Positions 1-62,825 of a DNA stretch of 64,000 bases are shown piece after piece. Source of the stretch: an uncultured virus (IMG/VR IMGVR_UViG_3300025789_000021) (Duplodnaviria > Heunggongvirae > Uroviricota > Caudoviricetes). The position numbers and the translations under genes were made by a program. The stretch lies in IMG/VR virus record IMGVR_UViG_3300025789_000021; one strand, 5' to 3'. Position 1 is the first letter of the stretch; every line of letters begins with the position of its first letter. The notes below the pieces were generated by a model. It searched no databases. It was not told the DNA's origin and was given only the letters and a program-made list of their open reading frames with translations.

Positions 1-166
1 AACGTAATGCAATGTTATCCCTTGGATGACAATTATGAACTACCAACCCAGTGGCTGAATTAACATAATATTGATCATCATCAGTTTCATGATTTGGCTT
101 CACTTCCATGTTATATACAAAACCATCATATTTTACTTTAGTGATTTCGTTAATTGTCGTCTTCAT
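1..166 (-). CDS. ugd: Split intein C-half (45 aa) fused to the C-terminal part of UDP-glucose 6-dehydrogenase; runs off the window edge; absent from the ORF track
   Basis: My translation from ATG 166 is MKTTINEITKVKYDGFVYNMEVKPNHETDDDQYYVNSATGLVVHN|CHPRDNIALR. It has intein block F (VYNMEV) and block G (VVHN/C). CHPRD completes the UGDH GGxC-x-P-K/R-D active-site motif. ATGA overlap with the upstream ORF stop. Confidence 0.92.
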   Translation of the reverse strand, partial: MKTTINEITKVKYDGFVYNMEVKPNHETDDDQYYVNSATGLVVHNCHPRDNIALR

Positions 167-1044
167 AATTTTTCCTTTAATGTTTTACATTTGTCTCCAT
201 GCCATCGTTTATAGTTGCCTTTATTGGTAACAATTCCACAATGATAACATAATTCTGTTTTCCCATTTAGTATTTGATTTTGTTTTTCACGTTCTTCTAC
301 TGTCCGGTTGACATTCCACAATTTAACTGCTTCTGATATCAGTCTACCTCGAATTTCTTTTTCTTCTTCTGTCAATCTATCATGATAATTCTGTGTAGCG
401 GCTGATAAATTATTACGATGTTTTATGCTTTCTTCTTCTGTTCTATTGGCATAGTATTCTTTTGATCCCATGGAAAGCAGTTCAGCGGTATGTTCACATA
501 TACCTTCCCACCAACCTTGGCGCATCAATTCATTCTTACGTTTTTCATCTGCTAACACTTGGCTTACTCCATTGGTTATCCAAGTTTTACCATAAGCATT
601 ATTTTTTTCTCCGGTCTCATTCCGAATATTATTCAATGACACTCTTTTACTATTTGGTGATCTCCCAATTGACCATCCTTGATCTTCCATAATATTAATC
701 AATGATAATTTAACACACACTTCAATATCGCCTTTTGACATCCATTTGGTGCCCAGAACAGTATATCTTCCATCAGCATAACTTCTATTAAAACTCATTG
801 GGCTGTTAACAGCATCCAATTCTTTTAGTATAATATTTTCACGTTGTCTTATGTATAATTGATCGCCTGTCTCTAATATTTCGCGAGACCATTGGTCCGG
901 ATTGGCAATAATCATTGGCTCAACTATATCACTTGAACATAGATATCCATCTTGTGGATGACAACCCTCGCGTGTGCGGGAACCAATATACCACATGCCG
1001 GTAGGTTTATATGTCCACTTATAAATGTATGCTATTGTTTTCAT
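163..1044 (-). CDS. Free-standing GIY-YIG (Seg-like) homing endonuclease
   Basis: N-terminal YIYKWT...WYIGSR...GY..SS motif and C-terminal CxxC...YKRWHGDKC module. Lies between the two ugd/intein halves. Confidence 0.8.
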   Translation of the reverse strand: MKTIAYIYKWTYKPTGMWYIGSRTREGCHPQDGYLCSSDIVEPMIIANPDQWSREILETGDQLYIRQRENIILKELDAVNSPMSFNRSYADGRYTVLGTKWMSKGDIEVCVKLSLINIMEDQGWSIGRSPNSKRVSLNNIRNETGEKNNAYGKTWITNGVSQVLADEKRKNELMRQGWWEGICEHTAELLSMGSKEYYANRTEEESIKHRNNLSAATQNYHDRLTEEEKEIRGRLISEAVKLWNVNRTVEEREKQNQILNGKTELCYHCGIVTNKGNYKRWHGDKCKTLKEKL

Positions 1045-1066
1045 CAATATATTTATTATTTAATAT

Positions 1067-2137
1067 TCATGTAAACTTATCAATGACAAACAACTTATCG
1101 GTGTGCAGCACTTCGTCAGCCCTAGTCAACATATGCACTCCATCTCGTTCAATAGGAAGTAGATGATTGTCAGTGACAATCAAATCACCAATGAAAGTGT
1201 TAAATTTGATCATCTCCCCACTGAATGGTGTTTTGGTTACCGCCTTGATTGTTTTTTGATCTGTCCTACTGCAGTCTGCGGTGGTAGATACAACCATAAA
1301 CTTATCGGTTGAATTAAATTTATCATATAATTCTTCCATAGTTATCATCTCGTCATTTACTGTTACCGTAAATGATGGGAGAACACACGCGCCGCCATCG
1401 CCCATTCCTGCAGTCATATAAGCCGGTCCAGTGATACGATAATTGGAACGTGCGAGAGCACCTGTGACCACATCAACGTTGATGTTACCATTTTTCTCGG
1501 CAACATCCTGAATCATATTGACAATTCCAACTTTTGCCGAAATAAAAGTATTGTAAAAAATCTTAATTGATTCTGCCTCATCCCATGTTCCTACTTCATA
1601 TCGTGGGTCATTTTGCATGAATGCCTCATAAAAATGAATCAGTTCGGCAGCATCACCTGTAATAGAACCATCTTCGGTGCCAATGATGACCATTTCTGGA
1701 TTAGCCATGTCCCATTTAATAGTTCCCATTGCGATAAGATATGGGTTATAAATGAAGCGCGCATTGGTAATGCAAGGGCGCAATTGATTGCGCACTGTTC
1801 CAGGAAGGACAGTGCTAATTAATACTACTAACTGATTCTTATTAACCCATTTATTAACTTCTTTGAGAATATCCGTCACAATGGTATAATCAAAATCTTT
1901 ATTAGGGAGGTGACTTGTTGGAGTTTCACCGCCATATATGGGGTTATGTGGTGTCGGTGCCGCAATGAAGATAATATCTCTTCCTGATACTGCTTCCTGA
2001 ATAGTATTACACATTGGAAACGTTGGAGTTCTTAATTCTACATCATAACCGACAACATCATAATAATCTGCCATTACTTCTGCGCAGTCTTGTCCGAGTT
2101 TTCCAACTCCAATCATTGCTACTTTTTTAATTGCCAT
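1067..2137 (-). CDS. ugd: UDP-glucose 6-dehydrogenase N-terminal part (aa 1-250) fused to split intein N-half (aa 251-356)
   Basis: Rossmann GVGKLG, ISTVLPGT, EAESIKIFYNTFISAK and GMGDGGA motifs, then intein block A (CVLPSFTVTV, Cys codon 1387-1385) and block B (IVTDNH). The ORF stops without a C-terminal HN. Confidence 0.92.
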   Translation of the reverse strand: MAIKKVAMIGVGKLGQDCAEVMADYYDVVGYDVELRTPTFPMCNTIQEAVSGRDIIFIAAPTPHNPIYGGETPTSHLPNKDFDYTIVTDILKEVNKWVNKNQLVVLISTVLPGTVRNQLRPCITNARFIYNPYLIAMGTIKWDMANPEMVIIGTEDGSITGDAAELIHFYEAFMQNDPRYEVGTWDEAESIKIFYNTFISAKVGIVNMIQDVAEKNGNINVDVVTGALARSNYRITGPAYMTAGMGDGGACVLPSFTVTVNDEMITMEELYDKFNSTDKFMVVSTTADCSRTDQKTIKAVTKTPFSGEMIKFNTFIGDLIVTDNHLLPIERDGVHMLTRADEVLHTDKLFVIDKFT

Positions 2138-10883: not shown

Positions 10884-13800
10884 TTAAGTTATATCCACTT
10901 CTAAGAATGTTGCAGGAATAGTTTGACTAATCTGCAATGGATCACCAAGTGTTGGGTTGTATACATATGAATTCCATGTCTGGTTATAGTAAGTATCTGG
11001 CAATTTGTTTGCTGACAATATGCTGAATACATCAGCATATTCCGGAATATATACCTGTGCGCCTGTGCCATTTGCCCCACGCTGCAATCCACCAAGTGTA
11101 TTAGTTACAGTATTGACAATACTGAATTTAATTTGTTCACCATTAATATATATAGTGTTGCCTATCAATGTAGTTATTGTCAGTGAGTTGCCCGCGTTAA
11201 TATAACTGCCAGTATTAATTACTAGTTCTGGTGCCAAACCAATGATCGTGATTTGATAGTTAGAACTACTTATATACTTTCTAGTAGTATTGTTATATAC
11301 AGAAATACCGGTAATGAGTGTTTTATCTACACCAGTCAATCCTATAGTATAAACGCCGCCACTTGCTGCCGGAACTATTGATGTCTGAGTAACACTATTA
11401 GTTACTGCACGGTAATCTTGTATATAAACCAAATCACTTTCTTGATATAATGGCTGAGTCAACCAAGTTCTTGATAGGTTATTTGCTCTATATACTGATG
11501 CCTGACCTAACTCATTAATGAAGTTCATATAGATTTCACCATTCGGCGTTGCAGTCGGAATCATATTAGTCATAATTACGGCTGATCCTGATGTAATGCT
11601 CGTCAGAATTCCAACTTCATTTGATGGATACAATCTGAGGCTTGATGAGGGGACTCTATACCCATTAATGGTAATCCATAGACGATCAGGATTATTCTGT
11701 TCCCACTGAGTTACGTTAACCACACCAGTTGCATCAGACAGGGTTACGTTTGTGCCATACTGTGAATATGCTACACTGAATTGAGTTGGACTATAAATTG
11801 TGCTTACGTAATATACTGTTCCCTGAATCAATCCACCAAGAATATTTGTGCCATCTGCTGAACCTGTTGCAGTAAACACTACAGGAGTTCCATAATCAAG
11901 AGTAGCAGTGCTCGCCACGGTGATTACATTACTGTTTCCACCACTTGAAACCGAAGTTGATGACGTTGTAGTATCAACTAGATAATAAGAACCTGCTACC
12001 CAAGTGTATCCCCCGCTTATGTAGGATGATATTTGTGTTACTGGGTTATTGACTGCATTTAATGCAGCACTGAATGGAGTAGTATACAAGTCAAATACAT
12101 TGGTATTAATTATTCTTGCATAATATTCGTTTCCATTAAGTTGATTTGATCCTACTGTCCCATCAATTCTGATTAATTGATTTTCTGTAAAGTAGTTGGT
12201 ACCGTTTGTGGTTACACGAACGGCTGGTGTTCCTCCAACAGTTACTAGCATTTCACCAGTGGCAGTAGTCACAGCAAACACGCTTCCCGGTACACCATTA
12301 ACGGCAGTTGCAGAAATTCTGAATGCGGTAGAACTCACTATACTTTGAACAAAATACACAGTTCCATCTGTAGCTATTCCCCCAAAACTAGTTCCTTGGA
12401 AAGTAACTGGTTGACCAACCACGAATCCGGAAGTACTAACAACTGTGATATTATTGGTACCAGAAGTTGTTGCGTTAGATGCCGTCACCGCATATGGAGA
12501 AGTAATATTATTTGAAATACTTACGATCTGACTAACAATATTTGAATTTGTCGCAGTAATTGTTTGAGTATTTAAATATTGTCTTCTAGTATCATTAAAT
12601 GTAGTGACTCCTATTTCTGACCCGTTTGATGGCGCAGAATTAAATGTAATTGTGTCGGCACTTGGATCAATTGTATAAGTGGACGGCGATGCTCGTAGTC
12701 CATTAACTTCTACAATTGCGTTAGATGGATTGCCTGCGCCAACATAGTTAGACAAAGCAAATTGCGTCTGAGAACCAGTTCCAGTAAACAATTGAGTTTC
12801 AGGTACTGTATATCCATACTGGATTGGTAACGTCTGACCAAATAATGAATATACCAGATAATCAGAATTATTTGTATAATTTCCTGTTGAGAAAATTATC
12901 ATTGCAGAAGTTCCATTTGGTTGGATACCAAAGGCATAATCATATGTTACGAACGTTGCGCCGCCTTGTTGAGTAGTCAGCGATAATACTGGACCCGATG
13001 GAGTTGCGGATATAGTAAAGGTTGTGCTACTTAATATCTGTGCCACATAATATCTTTGTAGAGGAACAATGTCAGGTCCAAACATATTTGCACTGAAGGT
13101 GATAGGCGTATTGACTACCATTCTAGAAGTTGAATTTGTTGTTATGGCGTTAGTTCCAGTAGTAGTGTTAGTAACGATATCTGTGCCACCAGCAATTAAT
13201 TTCGTACCATTATGATAAATTATTGGCGATGTCCATGTCAATCCCGTTCCTGCCTGAACAATTACATACATGGTTCCTGTTGCATCAGTGACATCTAAAA
13301 TGGGACCAGGCTGTCCAGTAGCCGAATTGAACGATGCGGATATGGTTATTGTATTGGTTGCTTTACTAATACTCTTTACATAATATACAGTGTCTGGATT
13401 AATTCCACCAAAAGTTATCCCTTCAAATGTTATTGGTGAATTAAGAGACAGATTTGATAAATTATTGCATAGAATTCCATTACCATTACTGATAGTCTGA
13501 GTTGCAATGGTATCAATATCATATGTACCCGGCTGTATTACACCACTTCCTTGATAGATTGGCGCACTGTAATTACAGTCTACATAGATTTCATTAAATC
13601 CGGATACCGGATCAACCCGAATAGGATCAACATTGCTATTTGATTTAATCAATTGGTTACCATTTCCTACTTCATATACATCTAAGCGAATCGTTTCAGT
13701 AATAGGATATGGAAGCGGGTTAGTAAGAGTAAAGGTCTTATTAATCCAATTAACCGTATAATCAATGCCATTATTTAATGTTGTTCCTAGTCCGGATGCT

Positions 13801-16800
13801 ACACCCACTGTCTGTACAAAGATTTGTGCAGGGAAATGAGCGATTCCAGCAAAACTATATGTCGCCTGTGTTCCGGAGGTTGGGACAAGATTCTTGGACA
13901 CCACATTATACCCAGAGTGACCGTATTGTTCAATGTTCCAATCGGTTCCCGGACGAGTTGCGACCGTCATCGCAACGTTATCTGTTACTACTCCCGGAAC
14001 CAATTCTTCGGGACCGTATCCATACTGGAATGGTGCACCCTGAACATCATATGTTGGTACAGGCAGTCCAGTATTATTAAATGGCTGATCCTGTAATACC
14101 GTATCCAATGGATACTGTAGTGATGGCTGGAATTCATTACCATAGTAAATTGAGTTAGGATACGTGACTCCATCAAATAACTGAGTTAAGTCAACACCCG
14201 GCATATTTGTTGTAGGGGCATAATAACCAATTACTCTATCCATTGCATTCAATCGTGGATCATCAGAGTCAAGAATTTGCCATTTACCTATTACAAAGTT
14301 TTTGTCATTATTTGAAACAACGCAGATGTATACTCTGCCGTTAAATTTAACAATTGATTGATTAAAGAAGAATGGTTCAGGCAAGAATGCAAAACTTCCA
14401 GCTTTGGCAATAGTGAAGTTTGTGTTTGCAGTTGATGTAACCGTAATGGCGCTTCCACCCGGAATTGTTGTTACCTGAATTTGAGTGCTGTTAAGAATTG
14501 CAGAAATATAATATGTCAAGTATGGAGAGATATTAGAAACTGCAGTACTAGTATTACCAGTAAACACAACTGCATCATTAACACTAAATTTAGAAGTATC
14601 AGAAATTGTCAATGAATTATTTGATACAGTGACCGAATTTACAGTATCAATCGTAAATCCACCAAAACCAAGATTTATTCCACTTACCGGCACAGTCATT
14701 GATGGGTTAGCATATACTTCAACTTGATTTGGGGATATCACTTTTAAGTAGCATGTCAGTGATGGATATGGCACGATTCCAGAACAGATTACGCTCGTGA
14801 TTCCTCCAGAAGAGTTAATATTATTAACCTGCAATACTGCATCATTTAATGGCGTTGTTCCACCAAGGACCGTTCCACTGATTGTAATAGTATTGTTTAG
14901 CGCAAACCCTGATCCAGCACTAGTGATTATCGCCCTGTATCCACCTAAAATATACGACATATCAAATGTAGGAGTTGAAGTTATGTATTGATTCAACACC
15001 GAACCCGTTGTGGAGTTGCTTAAAGTTACTGGTGGGCCACCCGCAGTTGCAGAAACAGTAATATATGGATCACCAACCCCTGTCATAGTACCATTGTCTG
15101 TAGTTAGTGTGAGAGTTGCACCACCTTTAGTCAAAGACACAGTAAAGTGAGTTGAATCGGCAATGCTAGATACAAAATACTGCTTGCCAGTTAAGATGCC
15201 ACCAAGTCCCTGTCCAGAAAATACGATTGACATGCCAACATACATATATGATGTGTCGTCGCCCGTTAGTAGATTTCCGTCAGATGATGTTCCGGTAACA
15301 TTTACTTGAATATTATTCACCCCGGTTTGACCAGAATATGTCAATACATAATATGTAGTATTAGATGAAAGACCACCAATGGCAGTTGCAAACTGAATTG
15401 GCATATTAACATAGAACAAATCAGTCCCACCAGAAACAGAATCAATAGCAACAATATTATTACCGTTAGCAACGGTTGCATTTACGTTTCTCTGAATCAG
15501 ATTTCCAACAATACCGCTAGTAATATTCGGATATTGACCAGATGTTCCGTACAGTGTAAATTTTTGACCATTTATTTGTCCGGGACTTACTGGCAGCGAC
15601 ACGTTCATGGTCATTGCACCAGTATCCGTAGTTAATTGAACACTATCAATTTGGTCGGTAATCAATGCTGTTCCAGTTGCATTTGACAACGTAAGGATAG
15701 AACCATTAATATACTGGGAAATCTGCATCGTTGTACCACTGAGAATATTACTTACATAGTAAGTAGTACCTGCCACAATTCCACCAAATGCGGTTACAGG
15801 GCTTCCCGAAATAGTCATTTGCGTAAAGATAATCGGATCGTTTACATTAAATTGGAATGTGCTTCCCACAGTGATGACATTAGTACTAGATGCTGTTGAT
15901 GTCATTGTAGTAGTCAGCGGGTTTTCATTTGCAGAAATTGTAAATGTCTGTTGATCAATTACTGTGCTAATATAATAAACTTGATTTTCTACGACTCCTC
16001 CAATCACACCGTCACTGAAAAATACTGGAAGATTTTGATAGAAACTGCTTGTTCCACCAGTTCCAATAACACTAGTTGGGACAGTCAGATAATTGGTTCC
16101 TGAGGTAGTATTAGTAACAGTCAATATTCCGGGATAATTTATATCAAGAACCGCAGTATCAACAATCTGAGCAGTCAGACATGTCATTGGTATTGAGCCT
16201 ATGGTTGCCGTAGTTAAAGAAACTACGGAACCATTTTGTGTTGCGGAGACTGTAAATGCAGTTTCACTTATTACTTGCGCAACATAATATTCTTGATTGG
16301 CCACTAATCCACCAATCACTGCACCATTAAACTGGACCGGCATACCGACATAAAATCCAATTGTCGTTCCCGAGGCATTTGGTTCAGGATTAGATGGGTT
16401 GTTATTATTGTCTTGTGGAATTAAGGTGATAGCATTATTGCTACTGCTTGTGCCACTAACATATCTAATGGTTGATGACCAATCAGTTTGTCTATTATTA
16501 GCCACGCTAACAATTTCAAATACTGCGCCTTGTGCCGATGCCAAGATTCCAGAAATAGATGGATTGACGCTTTCTAATTGAATGGAAGAACTTGATACTT
16601 GGTTAATATTCAAGTAGTTTCCAGCAAAGAATGATCCATAATACTCACCGGCTTTCCAATCAATTACTTGAGATTTGTAAGTTGTTCTGTCAAACTTAAC
16701 GGTAATATTATTTTCTCTTATAGGATAAGATGTTGAAATGGCATATGCCCGTGCACCTAAGTTAAAACTTAAAGTGTTGGTTGTTCCCTTATCATATATC

Positions 16801-19800
16801 TGAATTCTATTTTTATCATTTATAGCATCGCGATATGAAGAATACAATGCAATAACAGAGGTTGGGTTCGTCTGTAACACATTTACATAATACCATTCGT
16901 TATCTGATAGCAGTCCGATACCAACCTTATCAGCGCCAGCCTTATATTGGATTACGTTACCTGTCTGTAAGTTAGGTGCATAAACAACCACAGTATGTAA
17001 TAAAGAGTTGATTGCAGTATTGGTAAATGAAATTGTTGTTGACGGATCAATTACAATTTCTGGTGTGATGGCATAGCCCTCACCCGGATTAATTACATCA
17101 ATATTTAATACGGAATCAATGCCCATAACCGCTTGTAGTTGTGCGGGAACTGTTGGAGGCGGATAAAGGGTTGTATCAATATATGCCGTTACCTTTGGAG
17201 TATTTACATATCCTGCGCCACCGTTCAATAGAACTACCGGAGGAAGATTTATTGTGATTTTTGCGCCCGGAAAATGATTGGACACTGTAGTTCCATTATA
17301 TCCTCTTGTTAGACCAGCAATAAGATTCAGTGACGTATCAACCGCACTATATTGAATCTGTTCATTGTCAATAGTTAGAATACCATTAATAGGAAAACCA
17401 TTGGCATTTTCAACTATCATGCTATTTGACTTTAAATCCATATATGAAGTTAATGTAGTCATCAAGTAGTCTGGCTGACCGGTCAATGATACTCCATAGT
17501 TCTGTTTCCATTGAGTATATGGTGCAGTTGACCAAATGCTGTCAGTATTAGCATATTCATATTCATTACTTGGTAAACCATACACAATCTGGGGAGATAT
17601 AAATTTTTGATAAGTGCTATTATATTGTGCAGGAAGGTCAAAATCTGTCAGATTTCCTACATAATCTTCATTTCCTTTATAATCATATAAGAAATCTTTG
17701 ATCAATACATGATATGGTTTAGTTTCATTAATATAGCCACTCAAGAAATCAAAATTATCTGTTACATAATTTTCATATGGCAGAAGTTCACGAAGAGTGT
17801 GCTGTACATCAAGTAATGATGTTTTATTTAACCATGGCAAGAAATTTTGGGATTCTACAGTTTCACTCTGAATGTATTCAAACATCAGAATTAGGCTTGA
17901 ATTTCTATACTGAAGTAAGTCTTCAGTAAAGATTTGTTCATTTAGTGCGCGGATAATATAATATGTCTCTTGACTTGGATAGTCGTCATATACGCCAGTA
18001 TCAAAGAAGTTTCCATCCCATCCAAACTGACCGCTTGCATAATCCCACAATGTAGAATTAAACTGAATGGTACCATTCTGAAGTCCGACACGAGTCCATA
18101 CACCATTACCATCATAGCGATAAGTTTCAGTATTACCATTTTTACTTTGTAATACAGTAACAATAGTTCCTGAAGATACATTTAATGTTTTTAGATCAGC
18201 ATAATATGGAACCTGATAAAGCGATTTGGTATTATTGTCGTATCCAGCAGCCCACCAATTTGTATATGACCAATAATCTGACGTAGTGTAATATTCACCT
18301 GAGGCAAACAAAAACGTAGAGTCCGGTCTTAGTTCAGCGATGGGATATTGAATTAAAATACTATTAGCATATGTTAAATAGTTGTTAAGTGCTAAAAATC
18401 TGTCATAAAAGAAACTTTGTCTTGGATGGGACATTACGCCAGACTGCACCGCAAGTGGCAAGAATGGGTCAGGAACAACTGCTCCGGATTTATCACATCC
18501 GGAAAATGAATACAATAACCTTTCATACAATGCAGTAGGAATTCCTGTATAATTAAAATTATTTCCAAATGTCGCGACTGTTGTCTGTCTTTTCACTATA
18601 GGAGGAAAACCGGTCAGGAAACTTTTAGGATCGCCCTGATTAATAAGTGCAAATTCTTCATGTGAGACGTCTTGTGCCTTTGCAGTTGAATATCCGATAT
18701 GAAATATTGAATCTTTTCCGTTAAAAAATGTAGATGCATTATAAAGCCCAATCGTGTTTGGAGACAATGGGGCAACAAATGGAATACCGGACGCAGACGG
18801 ATTTGCAATATATGTGGATACAATTGAATCTGATAATGATTTATTTCTCTGATCAAATATAATATTAGTGTTGCGTACCCAGAAATAATAAACTGGAGAA
18901 ACAACGTTTGAAGAATTCAATACGCTTGCAACGCAATATTTATTGATATCATATACGCTGCCTGAACCACTATATTTATTTGGCGGAGAGAAACTTGCTA
19001 CCCAAGTATATACTGCGACATCTGAACCCGGAAATACCGATCCCCAATATTTACTATTGTATGTTACATCATTTTGGTGATAGTTTACCCATCGGATATT
19101 AGTTACATCCAACCAAAGCTGACCGACTTGTGCAGTGCCCCACATGTTACCATTGTTATTAGCAAGATTGCTATTGTATGATGCAGGGTCAACGCTTGTA
19201 ACGTAATCCAGATTTTCGCGGGCTGCACCAAGCAACTTGCCCTGTAATGGGTCCATGTAATCAAAGTTTACAAGGGTCTGGTTGCTTGTTGCACTGTAAA
19301 GTTGTGAGTTCTGAATGGAGTTGATATCAACCACTGGTGCAGAATTTCTATATACGGACCAGACTGGAACACCTGTTGGGTTTGTATATACCAGAACTTG
19401 ACCATTATTTACACCAGTCAAGAAGTTTGGAGTTCCAATAACAATTGTGTTATCGTTAATATCAAGAGCAGTACCATACATAGGCGAGTTACCATATGAT
19501 GTTGAATTGTCATTGACACTCTGAGCGTACACATATTGTCCCGGTGTTGTCAAGCTTTCATTATAATCAGCAAGATACTGGAAGAGATAGACTGCGCCTG
19601 CATTTGGATATGAATCAACAAATTGAGTTGCATTATTATCAAATACGGTATCGTTGCTTAAATTAAAAGCATCTACAAAATCAAATAACGTGCCTTCGTA
19701 ACGAGTGTCAGTTGGTGCTGAAACCACCATATTATTGAACGCGTCAATTTTAATACTAGTACCAAATTGTGTTGGACCAGAAGCATATGGACACTGTAGT

Positions 19801-22800
19801 ACTTGTGTTTCTGTGTATGGCTGGAAGCCCAATTCAGAAAATGCAGTAGTATTAAATGCAGTGATTACTAACTTTTTATTAACTGGCGCAATTGCACTAT
19901 CAATGCACTGAATAATAATATTATTATTACTAGTGGCAGCAGCCTGAATATTAATCAAACCTGAGGTATTAATTGCATTAGCAACCTGAATTGCCGTCCA
20001 TCCAGAAGAAAGATTTACCGCATATCCGTTGATCAGAACTGTTGTTGAAGAAACAATATTACATCCAGTAGTCCCAACGACAACACCATACTTGGCACCA
20101 CCATTTGAAAACTTATAAACTGCTCCTTCTTGACCATTAATGTCACTTATTTCAAATGGCGATCCAACAAGAATATCAGAACCGCTATTAGCATTTGCGA
20201 CAGCATAACCAAAGTGAATTCCTGTTCGGTCATGATAATTGGAATTAAATGTCTGAGCTAAGAAAAACTTACTGTCATTGACATTTAAAATATCACCAGC
20301 ATTTAAATTACTATAATAATATAAGTTGGTGCCAATTATTGCATAGTTACTATCATCAACAATCGTGCCGTTAACAGATACATACAGTGGTGTCACTTGA
20401 ACATAAACATTTACGCCAGTTAATGACACACTATTTAAATCTACTACAGTTGTGGTAATACGGCTTGTTTTTATCGTAATATTGTTACCTGATATAGAAG
20501 CGATGTAGTATACTCGCGCGGCATTGATACCAGTTCCAGCCAATGACGCACCAGTGAAGGCTATTGGGGTATTTACGGCATATGCACTCATGCTCGTGCT
20601 GCATGTGATTGTATCATTGGATGAGTTTGTAGCACTAGCAGTAATAGTAGCGGTCGCGACAGGAGTCCAAGCCAACGGGAACACTGATGTCTGGTTAGGA
20701 ACTTGACCTGATTGCACTTGGAAATTCTGTTCAGTGCGATTCAATACAGACACTTGTCCCCAATCTTCAATAGTCATGCTATAATTTTTGAGTGGCGCTC
20801 CAGCAATCAATATGCTACCGTCTTGATTGGTTGAAAGAGAGGCGCTGAAATTATCCCCCGAAGTATACCCATAGGTTGATCCAGTGATTTCACTTGCATA
20901 GCGATATGTTACTTGAGTTGCGGTACCTGATCCAGTGCCCGCTCCAGTGGCAATAAAGGTGATTCCGACCGCATTATATGAAGCGCCAATTGCCGTGAAA
21001 TCTGTTGAACCAAGTTCGGTAATTACATAAGTCTGGCCTGTATTAAAATATCCAGCCTGCAAAGGAATATTGTCTCTACGATAAACGTAGATGTTGTTGT
21101 TTGTAATATCGGAAATGTAAATCCAGTTTGCATCACCAGAAATTGCTACTGCACTGCCCCAGTTGGTTACCCCACCCGGCGCTGTGATGGCACTCTGATA
21201 TTGAATCAGGTTGTCACCTAATGGACTATTATTAAGTGTATAAATGAATACCTCAGGCGTTCCTGTGGGCTGAGATACGACATAGATATCGTTTGATGCG
21301 GAATACGAAATTTCAGAACCAAATGATGTTCCGTTAGTAATTGTCTGGTAAATTTCATATTCTTGAGTTAATGAATTGAGTACATATCTATAGACATTTC
21401 CTGCGGCAGCATCGCCAACAAGATATCCGATATCAGGAGTGTAGGCAACTGCTGAACCAAATGTGGAGGTTGATACCGGTTGATTAAGAAGTGTGTTCTG
21501 CATAACATAGTTGTTAGCTTTAAGCAATACCGCCCAATTACCATCAACATTGTTATCTACCCATACCAAATTATCAATGAAGTCTGCCTGAGTGAGATTT
21601 AGATTTCCAATATCGGATGGATTAGTTACACGATGTGACTTAAATGTCAACCCGATACCTAATCCCTGAATTGAATTTTGTGTAGTATTATTAAGGTTTA
21701 AATTAATTACCGCTTCATATATACTTGGAACATCAATGACAATATAATAACCATTTACGTTAGATGCAAAATTCACAATAGACAAAGACTGCAATCTAGC
21801 CAAATTGTGAGGAGCACTAAAAGTTAATGTTACGGTAGAATTGTTATTATTACGAACCTGTAATATCTGTCCGACAACCTCCCAAGAATAAACTCCCCAA
21901 TCCTGCATAAAGTTTGCCAACCATGCATATTGTCCGACATAAAAATTCTGAATTGGCACTATAGCGCCACTGGAATTGGTTGCACGGGGAAGACCTGCAT
22001 AATAGTAAGATGCTAGTGTTATATCGTTGAAGTTTACAAACCCAGCATTTGGGTATGTGTTATTCACTGAAGGATTAGAGGTTACAGGCAAAAAATTAGG
22101 AGAGGAAATAGGAGTACCATAGTTGTACAGCGTATTCAATGGAATCTCTTGCATTGCGCCGTTAGTATTAATGGTTCCGTCTGTTAAACTTACAATTGAT
22201 GGGTCTCCCGTCATGTCACGAGCATTGATGGAAAAATCAATAAAATTATTATTTAGAGTTCCGCCAAATTTTCCGGACAGTATTGACCATATTTCATTGA
22301 CTGAATAGTTGATGCCACCAGTTGGTAAATTTGCACCTTCAAATGCACTTACTGAATTTAAAGTTCCTTTATTAATAATCAGATTCTGATAAACCTGAAC
22401 TTGAGCAACATTAGTTAAATCAAGCAATGCCAAATAATCTCTTGGTCGGTAGCCAATCAGTGAATACCCAAGTGTGTCGGCATCATCATGAAGGTTTGCT
22501 TGATTGATATCATAAAATAATGTGCTTTCATATGCCCTCGTTGATGGATTTGAAAGCATGCCAATTTGGATTGCTTCGTAATTGGTCAATTTCCACTGAG
22601 ATGGATTAAATTGAGTTGCAGGATTTACCACAACTTGTGCCTGATAATAATTGTTCTTATAAAGCACTACCGAACCCCGCGTATATTTCACTGCTGGGTC
22701 CCATTCTTGCACATTATCCTGATTGAGAATAAATCCACCAGCATACATTGTCCCGTTCCATTCAGCCGATTTTTCTCCACGAAGGAAAATGCGGTCTTGT

Positions 22801-25800
22801 CTTAGTCCGGTCACTAAGTTATAGATTACGTCATTGAATAATGTAAAATTATTAAACACAATACCGTGCTCAAAGTTACTGATATCAAATTGTCCGTATG
22901 CCATAGCATCGCCAACATTTTGTGTTTTAACACTAAACAAATTGTTATTACGAAATATTGCTAAATCTTTATTTTCAATAGGATAAAGATTTTGATTCAG
23001 GATGAAATTTTGGTCCTGAATGGTCAACGGTTGAACCAGTAGATTCTGTGGACTAATTTCCAATAAGCCTGCTGCAGGATTCAATGTAATAATGCTGCCA
23101 ATATTCCATCCAGTCTGTGCCCAATAAAGAAACTCTTGGATCATTTGCGTCCAAGTTACTTGTATGCCATTCTGAATGTCATTAAATAACATTCCTTGTG
23201 TTTCAAGATATTTACCATAACACATTAAAAATTGCGCAAGGTCTTGTGCATTGTAGAATTTTGTCCCATATGGGACGATATCTGTTTGAGTGGCAGAATA
23301 ATTTCTATATAAATTTACGGAAATATTTTGAACTGTAAGATTAGTTGTTCCTTTTCCTATCAATGGATTCGCAATGGTAAAATAAGCATAAAGTTGTGAA
23401 TTCCCATATACTGTCCAGTACCCATCATTCTGCTGCACTATGACGCCACTATACATTATTCTGTCTGACGGTTGATTATTGTACAGTAGAATTTTGTAAC
23501 TTTCGTCTGGAATTAATAATGACGAATTGTTACTGTTAGGTGATCCTTTTTCTACATAAAACTGTAGTAAATTTTTATCACTAAATCCGGCTAAACGATA
23601 AACCAGTCTTACATCCAAATTATTCAGCAACGTAGTAGTGTCAGCAGTAGCATCAATTCCCTGCTGCTTCTGATAATCTACAATCCAGTTAATATAACTT
23701 GTTTTAGCAGTACCATTACCATATATTTCAATATTGGATAGTACTAAGTGACTTCTGTTATTAACGAGATATTGGTTAAAATCAGAATTATATTGGTAGT
23801 TGTCCAAGTCGACTCCCAAGTTGAAAAATTCAGCAGGACGAGTCAGAGCGTAAATTTTCATAAGGTCAAATGGATAAGTTGAACTGCGACGATATGAAAA
23901 TTCTGTTGGAGCATCATCTCCTACAGCCCAGTCTTTTTGGAAAGTGCTTGGGTTGTAGTTTCCAATAATTGATTGAAATGGTGAAAGCAATGTGCCATTC
24001 GTGTCAACTGGAATTATTTTTGACAGTCCGGGGCGGGCAAATTCCGTATTGATATACGGATTGCCATTGTTCCATATATAACCTGCTTCAAGATCACCCC
24101 AAAGAATACCATTATCGCTTGTATATGGTAGTGGACCATAGCGCGTTGTCCACCATGTTGGTTCATTGGCAAATCCGAGCATTTCCCAAGGAGTTTGATC
24201 AGGAGTTGTTGTATCGTAAAAGTATTCATACACTCCTCTCCAATATCCTTGTTGAATAGGAGCATTATTCAGTCTATTTGCTGAATTAGTATAATTATAT
24301 GTTAGAGTATTACTGCTATTATAATATTGCGTCTTGTAATCTAAACGATTCTGTCCAACCCAATTTAGGAACAATGGACTATAGATAGACATGAAGTCTT
24401 TATAGCTATATGTTGGATTTCTAAAGAAACCGGGTACGATTTCAAATTTTGAAATTGGAATCTTGGTGCTTAATTTCAAATTATTAAACACTCTGTTTTC
24501 AAATTCAAATAATGCCTGATCTCTGAAATCGGTGAGTACACCCAGAATCTGATCATAAGTTCCATAAAGTTTAGTATATGATCCATCGTGTCCCTTTATG
24601 AACCATGTCGGATTTGTGTAATTAGAGTCCAATACAATGGCAGGCTGAAATGCAGGGTATAGTCCCAGTTTTGTAGGAGTATTTGGCGCATATGATCCAT
24701 ATGTTTGATTATACTCTTTAATAATAATTTGATCCCCTGCCTGTAGGTTAATCAACACTTCTAATGATGGTGAATCCGTATTAATTACGTAATCGACGCC
24801 AGACAACAATTGCTTTTCAACGGTAACGCCAGTAATATTGGTAATATGATAAACCAATACTCCATTATAGTTCGCAGTTGCAAAATTATATATTTGACTT
24901 AGTGGATAAAATGTACTACTTGACAAATTATTAAATGTGTATGTATTTGACACGTATGGCGTCTGAGACGGCAGCATGTCTGACCAAAAGAATGACTGGT
25001 CGCGGGTTTTTGCAGCAGTGATTTTTTGCAATGCCACATCTAAAATTTGTGAAGGCGTATAACGCTGTACATAGTCAGTGTTCTGAACGGTATTAACAAT
25101 CAACTGTTTATATGTAATGTATTCACGGCTGTTATACAGAAGAGCATCAAATATATTATATCTAGGTGAGCGAAGGAATGCTCCCGGCAAGACAAGAGAG
25201 GCAGAATTCTGAATAATCTTCGTTCCATATGGCAAAAGATTACCTAAATCTCTGTAATTGTTGGCTCCAAAAATTGGACCCGTTGTGTTTGGGGCATTAA
25301 TGTATATGTCTTGATATTGGTCGCGAATATCACCCATATTAACGATGGCTAAATCTTCGTTAAATGGATTATTATTTAAGTTGATTGGTATATCATAATA
25401 AGCCAAGTTACTTACTTGGTCACTAAGTACCAGAATTTGTATTACAGTTTTTGCAGTCGGAACATTTGCAAGTGTTATAGTAGTTGTAGTAGGACCAACA
25501 CTAACAGTATAGTTGTTTGGGTTTACATATGTGTTATTTATGTATACTTTGATCGTTGGCCAACCGGGATTATCTGATGTTGGTTCACTGAGAGCAGCAA
25601 CATCACATACAAATGATGTAGTTGTGTTAACCAATGGATCAAAATTGTAATTAAATACTTGATACTGCACACTGTCAGCGATTGCAGTTTGCCAACCTAG
25701 CTGTTTTACTTCCATGGCAATATCAGTATAATTATATACGTAACCAATATTTACCTTTTCTGTAATTGGGGTAGTGCCATTAATATACGAAAATGTGTCA

Positions 25801-59574: not shown

Positions 59575-59613
59575 TATAATTGACAAATGCTGCTGACTAT
59601 GATAAATAAAAGT

Positions 59614-60414
59614 ATGAAACATTTTATTTACAAAACAACTCACAAAAACGGCAAATACTATATTGGCAGACATAGCACCGACAACATAGAAGATGGTTAT
59701 GTTGGGTCAGGTAAATGGCCATTGTCCATTAAAGATAAATCATCACTGACTCGTGAAATATTGGAGTTTGTTGATGATTTTGACACGCTGGTTAAACGTG
59801 AAGGCGAATATCTCACAGAACATTATGGTAAACCCAATTGCATGAATAATAACATTGATCCCATTGGATTTGATTCCGGTGATAATAATCCGATGCGAAA
59901 TCCCGAGATAGCGGCAAAGATATCCGGAGATAATCACTGGCTAAAGCGAAATCCGGAAAGAAAAGAAGATTTTAGGAACCAACAGCTTAATAGGGTTAAA
60001 GACGGGAGTCACAATTTTTTGGGAAACGATAATCCAAACAAAGATGGAAGAAACGCCAAATTGGCATATGAACGTGGAACACACAATACCTTGACTAACA
60101 ACCCATCAACCGTAAATGCTACTAATGGGACACACCATTGGCAAGATGGTAAAAGTCCAAACTACCAAGGAAAACTTAATAAAAGGTTAGTTGAAGAAGG
60201 TCGTCATAATTTCCTTGGTCCGGAGTTGAATCAGAAACGGATTGATGAAGGAAATCATAATCTTGTTGGATCAGACACGAATCTTAAAATGTTAGCCGAA
60301 GGTAAACATCCATCACAACAAAAGAAAACCTGTGAACATTGTGGAAAAACTGCGAGTGTTGGGATGTATAAACGTTGGCACGGTGATAACTGTAAGAACA
60401 ATAAGGACAAGTGA
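59614..60414 (+). CDS. Free-standing GIY-YIG (Seg-like) homing endonuclease
   Basis: FIYKTT...YYIGRHST...DGYVGSG, repeated G.HN(F/L) motifs, C-terminal CEHC...YKRWHGDNC. Confidence 0.82.
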   Translation: MKHFIYKTTHKNGKYYIGRHSTDNIEDGYVGSGKWPLSIKDKSSLTREILEFVDDFDTLVKREGEYLTEHYGKPNCMNNNIDPIGFDSGDNNPMRNPEIAAKISGDNHWLKRNPERKEDFRNQQLNRVKDGSHNFLGNDNPNKDGRNAKLAYERGTHNTLTNNPSTVNATNGTHHWQDGKSPNYQGKLNKRLVEEGRHNFLGPELNQKRIDEGNHNLVGSDTNLKMLAEGKHPSQQKKTCEHCGKTASVGMYKRWHGDNCKNNKDK

Positions 60415-61693: not shown

Positions 61694-62254
61694 ATGCGTA
61701 TATCAGAACTCCTCACAGAATCAGAAATCTTGGATGAAATCAGTCGTCCTCATTTAATGGATGCAAGAGATATTCTTAGAAGAGCCGGATACAAACAATT
61801 AGGTTCCGGAACCTTTGCATATGTATACGCTAAACAGGATGCTCCAAATTGTCTTAAACTATTTGTAGCAAAGGACACGGCCTATATTGAATTTATTAAT
61901 CTTGCAATGAGTAATCCCAATCCGCACTTTCCTAAGTTTAAAGGTAAGTTGATGAAGATAACAAATCATTACTACGCCATTCAAATGGAAAGATTATCTC
62001 CCATTGACTATGTAGAAATGCGTACTATGATGTACGCAATTGACAATTATACCTCTGATATTTACTATAGTGGCAAGGCAAGTGATGCTTCTTTAGCAAA
62101 CATGGAAGAAGTTGAAAAGAAGCAGCCGGGAATTACTAAAGCTTGCGAGGCTATAGCAACAACCATCACGCGTGGAAGATCGTTAGATATGCACCGTGGA
62201 AACTTCATGATGCGTGGAAATGTTCTGGTTATTACTGATCCGGTGGCATGTTAA
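61694..62254 (+). CDS. Minimal protein-kinase-like protein
   Basis: LGSGTFAYVY (Gly loop), CLKL (catalytic Lys), IQMERL, DMHRGNFM (catalytic loop), ITDP. Confidence 0.75.
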   Translation: MRISELLTESEILDEISRPHLMDARDILRRAGYKQLGSGTFAYVYAKQDAPNCLKLFVAKDTAYIEFINLAMSNPNPHFPKFKGKLMKITNHYYAIQMERLSPIDYVEMRTMMYAIDNYTSDIYYSGKASDASLANMEEVEKKQPGITKACEAIATTITRGRSLDMHRGNFMMRGNVLVITDPVAC

Positions 62255-62255
62255 T

Positions 62256-62825
62256 ATGAAAATAACAGAACTCCTCACAGAATCAGAGATATTGGACGAA
62301 ATAAGCCGACCAAAACGTTCAGAAGCACATAATATTCTTATGAATGCAGGCTATGAAATGTTGGGTTATGGAATATTTGCTAATGTGTATGCTAAGCCCG
62401 GTGAAAATGGTGTCCTCAAACTTTTTGATTCCGAAGACGAAGCATATCAGAAATTTGTTTATATGGCAATGAGTAATCCCAATCCGCACTTTCCTAAGTT
62501 TAAAGGCAAGATGATGAAGATAACGGACGAATACTACGCGATTCGTATGGAAAAATTGACTCCTTTACCCGATACACCAGATACTGCATCATATGCAAAA
62601 AAGATTTCAGCATATGTTAAACTGATACAGAACAAATCGGGGCGAATACGATCTGATGCCGACGAATTGATAAGTGATATTGACGAGATTGAAAAAGAAC
62701 AGCCCGGAATTAAATATGCCTGTAATATGATTGGGAACAGGTTTAAAGAAGAAATCATAGACATTCACAACGATAATATCATGCTGCGAGGAAACATATT
62801 GGTTATAACTGATCCAGTTATCTAA
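62256..62825 (+). CDS. Minimal protein-kinase-like protein (tandem paralogue)
   Basis: LGYGIFANVY, VLKL, IRMEKL, DIHNDNIM, ITDP; likely start ATG 62256. Confidence 0.75.
   Translation: MKITELLTESEILDEISRPKRSEAHNILMNAGYEMLGYGIFANVYAKPGENGVLKLFDSEDEAYQKFVYMAMSNPNPHFPKFKGKMMKITDEYYAIRMEKLTPLPDTPDTASYAKKISAYVKLIQNKSGRIRSDADELISDIDEIEKEQPGIKYACNMIGNRFKEEIIDIHNDNIMLRGNILVITDPVI

What the first reader, a model, noticed from the sequence alone, without database searches (positions are those of the whole stretch)
1..2137. Fractured ugd gene: naturally split intein at the catalytic cysteine, with a homing endonuclease gene between the halves
Seen: ORF 1067-2137 is UGDH up to GMGDGGA, then switches to an intein N-half (C251-T356, 106 aa, block A CVLPS, block B TDNH) and stops. 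An ORF missing from the track starts at 166 and encodes a 45-aa intein C-half ending VVHN, followed by CHPRDNIALR. Trans-splicing would rebuild GMGDGGA-CHPRD, so the +1 nucleophile is the enzyme's catalytic Cys and neither half should be active before splicing. A separate GIY-YIG gene (163-1044) sits between them, ATGA-coupled to the C-half. Known: this layout occurs in phage replication and nucleotide-metabolism genes. I am not aware of it in a nucleotide-sugar dehydrogenase, though I cannot search for it. Inference: a new split-intein pair of possible protein-engineering value, and splicing-gated UDP-glucuronate synthesis.
Basis: partly seen in the sequence, partly recalled or inferred. Interest (0 to 1): 0.92.

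Follow-up and report, generated by a model that had tools for sequence, protein, structure and literature searches.

The report
Mobile split intein, phage sugar dehydrogenase
A large freshwater phage carries a sugar-nucleotide dehydrogenase gene in two pieces that a self-splicing protein element must rejoin at the active-site cysteine; the layout is a known kind, but this copy is still jumping between phages and appears to have swapped the DNA-cutting gene that drives it.

Summary
Confirmed, on the minus strand. ugd-N plus a 106-aa intein N-half (2137-1067), a GIY-YIG-fold endonuclease gene (1044-163), then a 45-aa intein C-half plus the UGDH C-part, which identical contigs complete to 191 aa. 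Intact relatives place the break at GG[AS]|CHPRD, the catalytic Cys (71 of 80 loci). It is a fractured gene as in Dassa 2009. Contiguous inteins at this same UGDH site are published for haloarchaea, so only the split form is new; I found no paper on it. This scan reported the family at least 8 times on other DNA. Added here: (1) recent homing: L003 shares the cassette at 99% but the extein at 81%; one sample holds the empty allele with an identical C-flank. (2) The allele exists in four states: split with PD-(D/E)XK-like nuclease (14), with GIY-YIG (2), without nuclease (5), and contiguous (1 cluster). The GIY-YIG form nests among PD-(D/E)XK forms, which suggests a nuclease swap. Splicing, cleavage and substrate are untested. 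The Glu161 base is Tyr throughout this subfamily, so UDP-glucuronate is not established, and 'gating' is a by-product, not shown regulation.

The parts
1388..2137 (-). UGDH-family N-extein, residues 1-250 (Rossmann GxGxxG, STV Thr, K193/N197 of IKIFYN, ends GMGDGGA)
   Evidence: Pfam PF03721, PF00984; TIGR03026 E 4.7e-27; PDB UGDH hits; motif positions
1067..1387 (-). Intein N-half, 106 aa (C251-T356; block A CVLPS, block B TDNH) and stop TGA
   Evidence: TIGR01445 E 2.6e-4, below cut-off; family profile hits only inteins at E<0.01; block B Thr and His invariant in 13 of 13
1045..1066 (-). 22-nt spacer with two overlapping T4 late-promoter-like TAAATA sites
   Evidence: TAAATA within 75 nt after the IntN end in 11 of 11 nuclease-bearing alleles examined; [ACT]TAAATA background 0.028 per 60 nt; motif named in PMC2677866 section 14. 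Function inferred.
163..1044 (-). Free-standing GIY-YIG-fold (Seg-like) putative homing endonuclease, 293 aa
   Evidence: phrog_314 E 3e-11; model pLDDT 88.6; Foldseek top 3 I-TevI, prob 1.00, E 1.7e-3; VIA Z 7.8, rmsd 2.9, 80 aligned, top 4 rows GIY-YIG nucleases; 10 of 94 alignment members hit SegE_GIY-YIG
32..166 (-). Intein C-half, 45 aa (MKTT...VVHN); start codon overlaps the endonuclease stop (ATGA), AAGGA upstream
   Evidence: TIGR01443 above cut-off; alignment of 16 C-halves; junction sequences
1..31 (-). Start of the C-extein (Cys+1 = catalytic Cys; CHPRDNIALR); 146 aa in full, completed in L002/L004
   Evidence: phrog_9148; PF03720 E 1.1e-3, below cut-off
32..1387 (-). Whole mobile cassette IntN-endonuclease-IntC, 1356 nt
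   Evidence: A contig of run X20 skips exactly these 1356 nt; identity step at the cassette edge in L003 and in L095/L160

Best explanation
A selfish, mobile split-intein cassette in the UGDH-family gene of a T4-like freshwater myophage. The N-gene makes extein(250)-IntN(106). A late-type promoter in the spacer (or read-through) expresses the endonuclease and, by ATGA coupling, IntC(45)-extein(146). The intein halves assemble a Hint domain and splice by the class-1 route (Cys1 thioester, attack by Cys+1, Asn cyclisation), giving a 396-aa, about 44 kDa enzyme whose catalytic Cys is the freed +1 residue. In mixed infection the GIY-YIG nuclease cuts an empty ugd allele near the GGA|CHP site and repair copies in the 1356-nt cassette. 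The ancestral driver of this intein allele was a PD-(D/E)XK-like nuclease; this lineage replaced it with a GIY-YIG gene, directly or through a nuclease-less stage. Shown by sequence: anatomy, site, catalytic-Cys identity, folds, allele states, recent transfer. Inferred: splicing, DNA cleavage, promoter use, order of nuclease exchange, substrate.
For: Site: 71 of 80 best viral loci read intact through GG[AS]CHPRD, 9 are split at this bond. Splicing residues Cys1, block B TxxH, terminal HN and Cys+1 present. Intein halves under purifying selection: L094/L095 IntN dN 0.039 vs dS 0.50, IntC 0.010 vs 0.24. Complex model: score 0.72, best of 3 controls 0.00; the mark was reached by 51 of 78 solved complexes and 2 of 108 mismatched pairs; runs share at least 81% of contacts, partner pLDDT at least 76; interface is IntN with IntC 1-47. 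Halves of a split intein can pass by likeness to solved structures, so this shows likeness only. Homing: L003 vs window, extein 599/741 (80.8%), IntN 317/321, spacer 22/22, nuclease 860/862, last upstream mismatch 21 nt before the site (Fisher p 3.5e-55); dS 1.11 vs 0.03. Independent case L095/L160: extein dS 2.35, IntN 0.03, mismatches up to -1 and from +6. The window's extein nests among intact alleles, behind a starred 99 branch, apart from 15 other split alleles. Run X20 has a contig that skips the 1356 nt and matches the C-extein over 468 nt with 0 differences, beside a contig with the filled junction. Swap: GIY pair nests among PD-flanked alleles, sister group L087 at 92/87, all deeper branches with known context PD-flanked or nuclease-less. 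Loss leaves remnants: L162 keeps the nuclease 3' end; L090 and L101 keep the last codons LGIKL* that supply the IntC start.
Against: No experiment. The window's IntN alone is under the TIGR01445 cut-off and has no Pfam hit. Both halves are net acidic (-6 and -3), unlike the opposite charges noted for other split inteins in PMC2677866; 3 of 10 pairs examined show a neutral or basic N with an acidic C. The Foldseek match is above E 0.001 and VIA Z is under 8. The empty-allele joint is one contig at depth 3.9 in 1 of 4 runs, with 27 letters on its short side, and a divergent N-extein contig ends at the same node, so the N-flank of the empty allele is ambiguous. The three nearest intein relatives (P0002-P0004) have no DNA context, and the branch joining L087 is not starred. 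Only 2 GIY alleles (7 contigs). The extein tree is a quick one with long rows.
Confidence: 0.85

Rival explanations
1. Independent fracture, not a swap: a contiguous mini-intein at this site was broken twice at the canonical point, once by a PD-(D/E)XK gene and once by a GIY-YIG gene.
For: A contiguous mini-intein of this clade exists (P0033, 449 aa; 5 cluster members, one on 12 contigs). Dassa's model starts from such an intein.
Against: P0033 branches far from the window; the window's intein sits inside a 97/90 clade of 37 rows in which all 17 with known context are split. P0033 has a Met where the split alleles start IntC (…NDVTMQINK…), which fits re-fusion equally well.
Confidence: 0.12
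2. Domesticated switch: the phage uses splicing (late expression of the C-half, or Cys redox state) to time dehydrogenase activity.
For: Cys1 and the catalytic Cys+1 are both needed for splicing; the C-half lies behind a late-promoter-like motif, the N-half has none in 60 nt upstream; 5 alleles stay split after losing the nuclease.
Against: Nearest exteins L005 and L006 are intact; the empty allele occurs beside the filled one; the cassette moved recently. Precise loss of an intein from an active site is hard, which explains persistence without benefit (inference).
Confidence: 0.1
3. Non-covalent rescue or dead gene: the halves assemble without splicing, or the gene is a disrupted, dispensable auxiliary gene.
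For: Precedent of Aeh1 NrdA assembling unspliced (PMC2677866 passages). Same-sign net charges.
Against: All splicing residues kept in 21 alleles; dN far below dS in both intein halves and both exteins in 9 pairs examined, except where the cassette is near-identical; an unspliced IntC would sit directly on the catalytic Cys.
Confidence: 0.06

Closest known systems
Fractured genes of Dassa et al. 2009 (gp41-1, gp41-8, IMPDH-1, NrdJ-1, NrdA-2; PMC2677866)
   Same: Extein-IntN, short spacer, free-standing GIY-YIG or Vsr-like nuclease, IntC-extein, all on one strand; late promoter motif; nuclease/IntC overlap; a nuclease-less state (gp41-7).
   Different: Host list has no nucleotide-sugar enzyme ('UDP' 0 occurrences in the main text; supplements not read). 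Spacer here is 22 nt against 27-51, overlap 4 nt against 6-69. Here one allele shows four states, two unrelated nucleases and dated homing. In the sections I read (10, 14, 16) no nuclease exchange within one allele is described.
Contiguous 'udp' inteins of haloarchaea, methanococci and some bacteria (PMC4071816; PMC4760082 lists 10 in Euryarchaeota)
   Same: Same insertion bond, GGS|C...HN|CFPKD, with the catalytic Cys as +1 (8 N-junctions and 9 C-junctions seen).
   Different: Contiguous, with a large internal domain; cellular hosts. Whether the phage intein descends from them was not tested.
T4 Seg / I-TevI GIY-YIG endonucleases
   Same: YIY-(10)-YIG, invariant Tyr19, Gly21, Glu69, near-invariant Arg23 and Asn86 in 94 sequences; fold closest to I-TevI catalytic domain.
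   Different: No direct Pfam GIY-YIG hit; sits inside an intein gene; target not shown.
UDP-glucose 6-dehydrogenase (human, PMC3265891; TIGR03026)
   Same: Thr131, Lys220, Asn224, Cys276, Asp280 equivalents kept.
   Different: Glu161 equivalent is Tyr; about 395 aa; below all NCBIfam cut-offs; substrate unknown.

Membership tests
Fractured gene with split intein (Dassa 2009) | Host N-part fused in frame to IntN, then stop | tested here: met
Fractured gene with split intein (Dassa 2009) | Free-standing endonuclease gene between the halves, same strand | tested here: met
Fractured gene with split intein (Dassa 2009) | IntC fused in frame to host C-part, start overlapping the nuclease end | tested here: met
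Fractured gene with split intein (Dassa 2009) | Late promoter motif upstream of the nuclease | tested here: met
   TAAATA twice in the 22-nt spacer; 11 of 11 alleles
Fractured gene with split intein (Dassa 2009) | Hairpin over the nuclease translation start | tested here: inconclusive
   -12.0 kcal/mol fold of 70 nt that pairs the start region; no shuffle control
Class 1 intein | Cys1, block B TxxH, penultimate His, terminal Asn, Cys/Ser/Thr +1 | tested here: met
   C251, T322/H325, H44-N45, Cys+1
Class 1 intein | Halves assemble into one Hint domain | tested here: inconclusive
   Model 0.72 vs best control 0.00 (mark reached by 51 of 78 solved, 2 of 108 mismatched pairs); may reflect likeness to solved inteins
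Class 1 intein | Protein trans-splicing activity | not testable with these tools
   needs co-expression
GIY-YIG homing endonuclease | GIY-YIG fold and motif | tested here: met
   scores modest, but top hits of two programs agree
GIY-YIG homing endonuclease | Cassette transfer with boundaries at the insertion site | tested here: met
   L003; empty allele
GIY-YIG homing endonuclease | Site-specific cleavage of the empty allele | not testable with these tools
   needs assay
UDP-glucose/GDP-mannose dehydrogenase family | NAD-binding, central and C-terminal domains | tested here: met
   PF03721 and PF00984 above cut-off; PF03720 only E 1.1e-3, below cut-off; phrog_9148
UDP-glucose 6-dehydrogenase proper (makes UDP-glucuronate) | Glu161 general base (NPEF motif) | tested here: not met
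   NPYL here and in 70 of 74 distinct segments
UDP-glucose 6-dehydrogenase proper (makes UDP-glucuronate) | Catalytic Cys, Lys, Asn, Asp, Thr | tested here: met
Vsr-like / EDxHD nucleases of Dassa 2009 (for the relatives' nuclease) | Family motifs | tested here: inconclusive
   Relatives' nucleases hit Phage_endo_I, DUF7487, TnsA-like N weakly and phrog_945/22215; no direct comparison with the Vsr-like family

The most novel reading that the evidence does not exclude
A single split-intein allele at the UGDH catalytic Cys acts as a reusable landing pad: the gap between the halves takes, loses and exchanges unrelated homing nucleases (PD-(D/E)XK-like, none, GIY-YIG) and can even re-fuse, and the GIY-YIG swap restarted homing that is now under way in a lake phage population, with filled and empty alleles side by side. 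This would be an undescribed step of split-intein evolution observable in one gene family.
Probability: 0.6. Interest if true: 0.65.

Novelty: new member of a known kind. Interest (0 to 1): 0.5.

Why it matters
It extends fractured genes from DNA and nucleotide metabolism to a phage sugar-pathway enzyme and gives, in one allele, nearly all stages of the Dassa model plus an apparent nuclease exchange. Filled and empty alleles with matching flanks make homing by a fractured-gene nuclease directly testable with a defined target. The 21 natural IntN/IntC pairs (23-57% identical to this one, apart from L003) are a panel for orthogonality screens. It is not a new mechanism, the site is known from contiguous archaeal inteins, and the scan has met the family before.

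Tried and rejected
No host genome is held. Pfam found neither intein half nor the nuclease. Single-sequence fold of the nuclease failed (pLDDT 32.6); only residues 1-106 were then modelled. No family member in GTDB genome contigs (249 candidate stretches, none confirmed) or in 50,697 GenBank phage records; 18 records there match the N-extein, their state at the site was not opened. A search for long contiguous forms with P0033 residues 170-449 found none among 673 candidates, weak evidence. No RNA holder listed. No Rfam match near the locus, so no sign of an intron. No second intein of this family in the window. The nuclease search returned only this allele and L003, so no donor locus; the window's other Seg-like gene shares only short stretches. 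Charge complementarity not seen. Frameshift or assembly error rejected (identical contigs, three different frames, 21 alleles). Paper searches without a description of a split ugd intein: 1 paper; 2; 53, 30 listed; 0; 0; 2 listed; 5; 6 listed; subscription journals and InBase were not searchable. First intein tree dropped 18 proteins through a pattern slip; redone with all 47 rows. Supplement 1 of PMC4760082 could not be searched and the Dassa supplements were not read; either could list a ugd case.

Full report
Anatomy. ORF 2137-1067 is a UGDH-family protein to residue 250 (Pfam E 1.8e-14 and 5.1e-10) followed by 106 residues that match the intein N-terminal model weakly (E 2.6e-4, below cut-off). 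A profile of 13 family N-halves finds 7 PDB sequences at E<0.01, all inteins. The ORF from 166 matches the intein C-terminal model above cut-off. Contigs L002 and L004, 100% identical to the window over 7756 and 8137 nt, give the whole 191-aa protein: 45-aa IntC ending HN, then 146 aa of UGDH. The genome is a T4-like myophage: portal, protease, major head protein, baseplate, late sigma factor, SbcCD-like nuclease. Runs that hold the stretch are freshwater metagenomes.

The site. Of the 80 best viral loci (of 599 confirmed), 71 read intact through GG[AS]CHPRD and 9 are split at this bond. Intact L005 aligns this Cys with the GGSC Cys of solved UGDHs; PMC3265891 (search listing and passages) establishes Cys276 as nucleophile, Lys220 and Asp280 as helpers and Glu161 as the base for thioester hydrolysis. 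The phage protein keeps Cys, Lys, Asn, Asp and Thr but has Tyr for Glu161, as do 70 of 74 distinct segments, intact ones included. The enzyme is therefore a live but atypical family member, and its product is open.

The nuclease. No Pfam hit for the protein itself, but phrog_314. Its first 106 residues have 640 relatives at E<0.001; 93 of the 150 listed were aligned; 10 of the 94 rows hit SegE_GIY-YIG and 38 NUMOD3. The model (pLDDT 88.6) is closest to the I-TevI catalytic domain in Foldseek (prob 1.00, E 1.7e-3) and VIA-align (Z 7.8, rmsd 2.9 over 80; next three rows PD-T4-3, EndoII, UvrC). Scores are modest but concordant. TAAATA occurs in the spacer in 11 of 11 nuclease-bearing alleles and before 6 of 15 window genes checked.

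The family. Scans with intein alignments and protein searches gave 21 distinct split alleles with DNA context: 2 with GIY-YIG (window, L003), 14 with a PD-(D/E)XK-like nuclease (L069, L071/L163, L072, L087, L089, L095, L160, L100, L123, L143, L150, and L103-L105 in a distant C[FL]PKD-type ugd lineage), and 5 with no nuclease (L090, L101, L148, L158, L162). L162 keeps the 3' end of the lost nuclease; L090 and L101 keep its last codons, which carry AGGA and the IntC start, as the model in PMC2677866 section 16 predicts. Of 34 proteins from the two searches, 33 end within about 40 residues of block B or of the N-half and one, P0033, is a contiguous mini-intein, with 5 cluster members.

Mobility. 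L003 differs from the window at 142 of 741 extein positions but at 6 of 1205 cassette positions, the last upstream mismatch lying 21 nt before the site; dS is 1.11 against 0.03. L003 ends inside the nuclease, so its right boundary is unseen. L095/L160 show the same pattern on both sides for the PD type. In a quick extein tree of 76 rows (58 intact, 18 split; L150/L151 left out, L162 and L103-L105 not captured), the window and L003 group with intact L005 and L006 (90) inside a starred branch of 47 intact rows, away from 15 other split alleles; intact rows were sampled by likeness to the window, so the tree says little about the other clade. Of 4 runs laid on L004 (of 24 listed), X20 has a contig that skips exactly the 1356-nt cassette and matches 468 nt of C-extein without a difference, and another contig with the filled junction; X14 and X19 show only diverged intact relatives. 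The joint is one low-depth contig with 27 letters on its short side, and two N-extein versions meet at that node.

Nuclease exchange. In a careful tree of 47 N-halves the GIY pair (100/98) groups with three context-less proteins (99/96), then with PD-flanked L087 (92/87, not starred), inside a 97/90 clade whose other members of known context are PD-flanked or nuclease-less; the deepest branches with context are PD-flanked. Parsimony favours PD as ancestral and GIY-YIG as a replacement. The root is by a chosen outgroup and P0033/P0034 join on long branches.

Assembly of the halves. The complex model scored 0.72 against a best control of 0.00 (mark reached by 51 of 78 solved complexes and 2 of 108 mismatched pairs; runs agree in at least 81% of contacts; partner pLDDT at least 76), with interleaved IntN/IntC strands. 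Solved split inteins exist, so this may be likeness. Against the usual picture, both halves are net acidic.

Known versus new. PMC2677866 (passages; sections 10, 14, 16) describes the layout in eight DNA and nucleotide enzymes, none a UDP-sugar enzyme. PMC2874743 (passages) and PMC4760082 (passages, part of supplement 2) list UDP-glucose dehydrogenase as an intein host. The supplement of PMC4071816 (one part and search hits) shows contiguous haloarchaeal inteins at the same bond. PMC5867893 and PMC7090010 (passages) added nothing. Eight searches found no split ugd intein. The scan's own notes report the family at least 8 times on other genomes, seen after my survey; none of the notes shown names a GIY-YIG form, though I saw only their short texts. 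The class-1 splicing steps and the names of I-TevI catalytic positions are recalled, not from a call.

Verdict. Real, well supported, a new member of a known kind. Interest comes from the dated homing, the empty allele and the apparent nuclease swap; it is capped by precedent for both layout and site and by the lack of any experiment.

Noticed in passing
L150:1144-3318 (also L151, P0021, P0023, P0024): A second, contiguous intein of about 350 aa sits in the ugd N-half at K[VI]FYN|T, right after the catalytic Lys/Asn helix residues, in alleles that also carry the split intein: a doubly invaded active site. Internal nuclease looks LAGLIDADG-like by eye only.
   Followed up: partly
P0033 residues 235-401: Contiguous mini-intein of the same clade with a Met exactly where split alleles start IntC; may be a re-fused split intein.
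   Followed up: partly
L103, L104, L105: The same intein and PD-type nuclease in a very distant, short ugd-like lineage with a roughly 60-70 aa C-extein and no C-terminal domain; P0028, a near copy of L105, is filed under a Bathyarchaeota assembly.
   Followed up: partly
window 59587-60414 (+): A second Seg-like GIY-YIG gene right after the major capsid gene; shares the N-terminal motif and a C-terminal CxxC-GxYKRWHGDxCK module with the ugd nuclease.
   Followed up: partly
L072, L087, L090, L095, L101 downstream of ugd: In these relatives ugd is followed by genes that by eye resemble a 2OG-Fe(II) oxygenase and, in L072 and L090, an amidinotransferase, as in earlier scan notes; in the window's phage ugd stands outside such a cluster, followed by a small protein, a DNA methylase (PF01555 with an internal HTH) and an ATPase-GNAT fusion.
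   Followed up: no
L012, L016, L022, L029, L034, L044 and others: Many intact phage ugd genes carry long C-terminal fusions (about 240-630 extra residues) of unknown domains.
   Followed up: no
L133:1049-3783 and L136:1331-3840: Two further fractured genes with split inteins: a UvsW-like helicase with a nuclease gene between the halves, and a radical-SAM-like gene (host names by eye).
   Followed up: no
window 61694-62825 (+): Two tandem genes similar to T7-type protein kinase family phrog_15752.
   Followed up: no
window 10884-28670 (-): A single 5928-aa ORF among tail genes; not examined.
   Followed up: no
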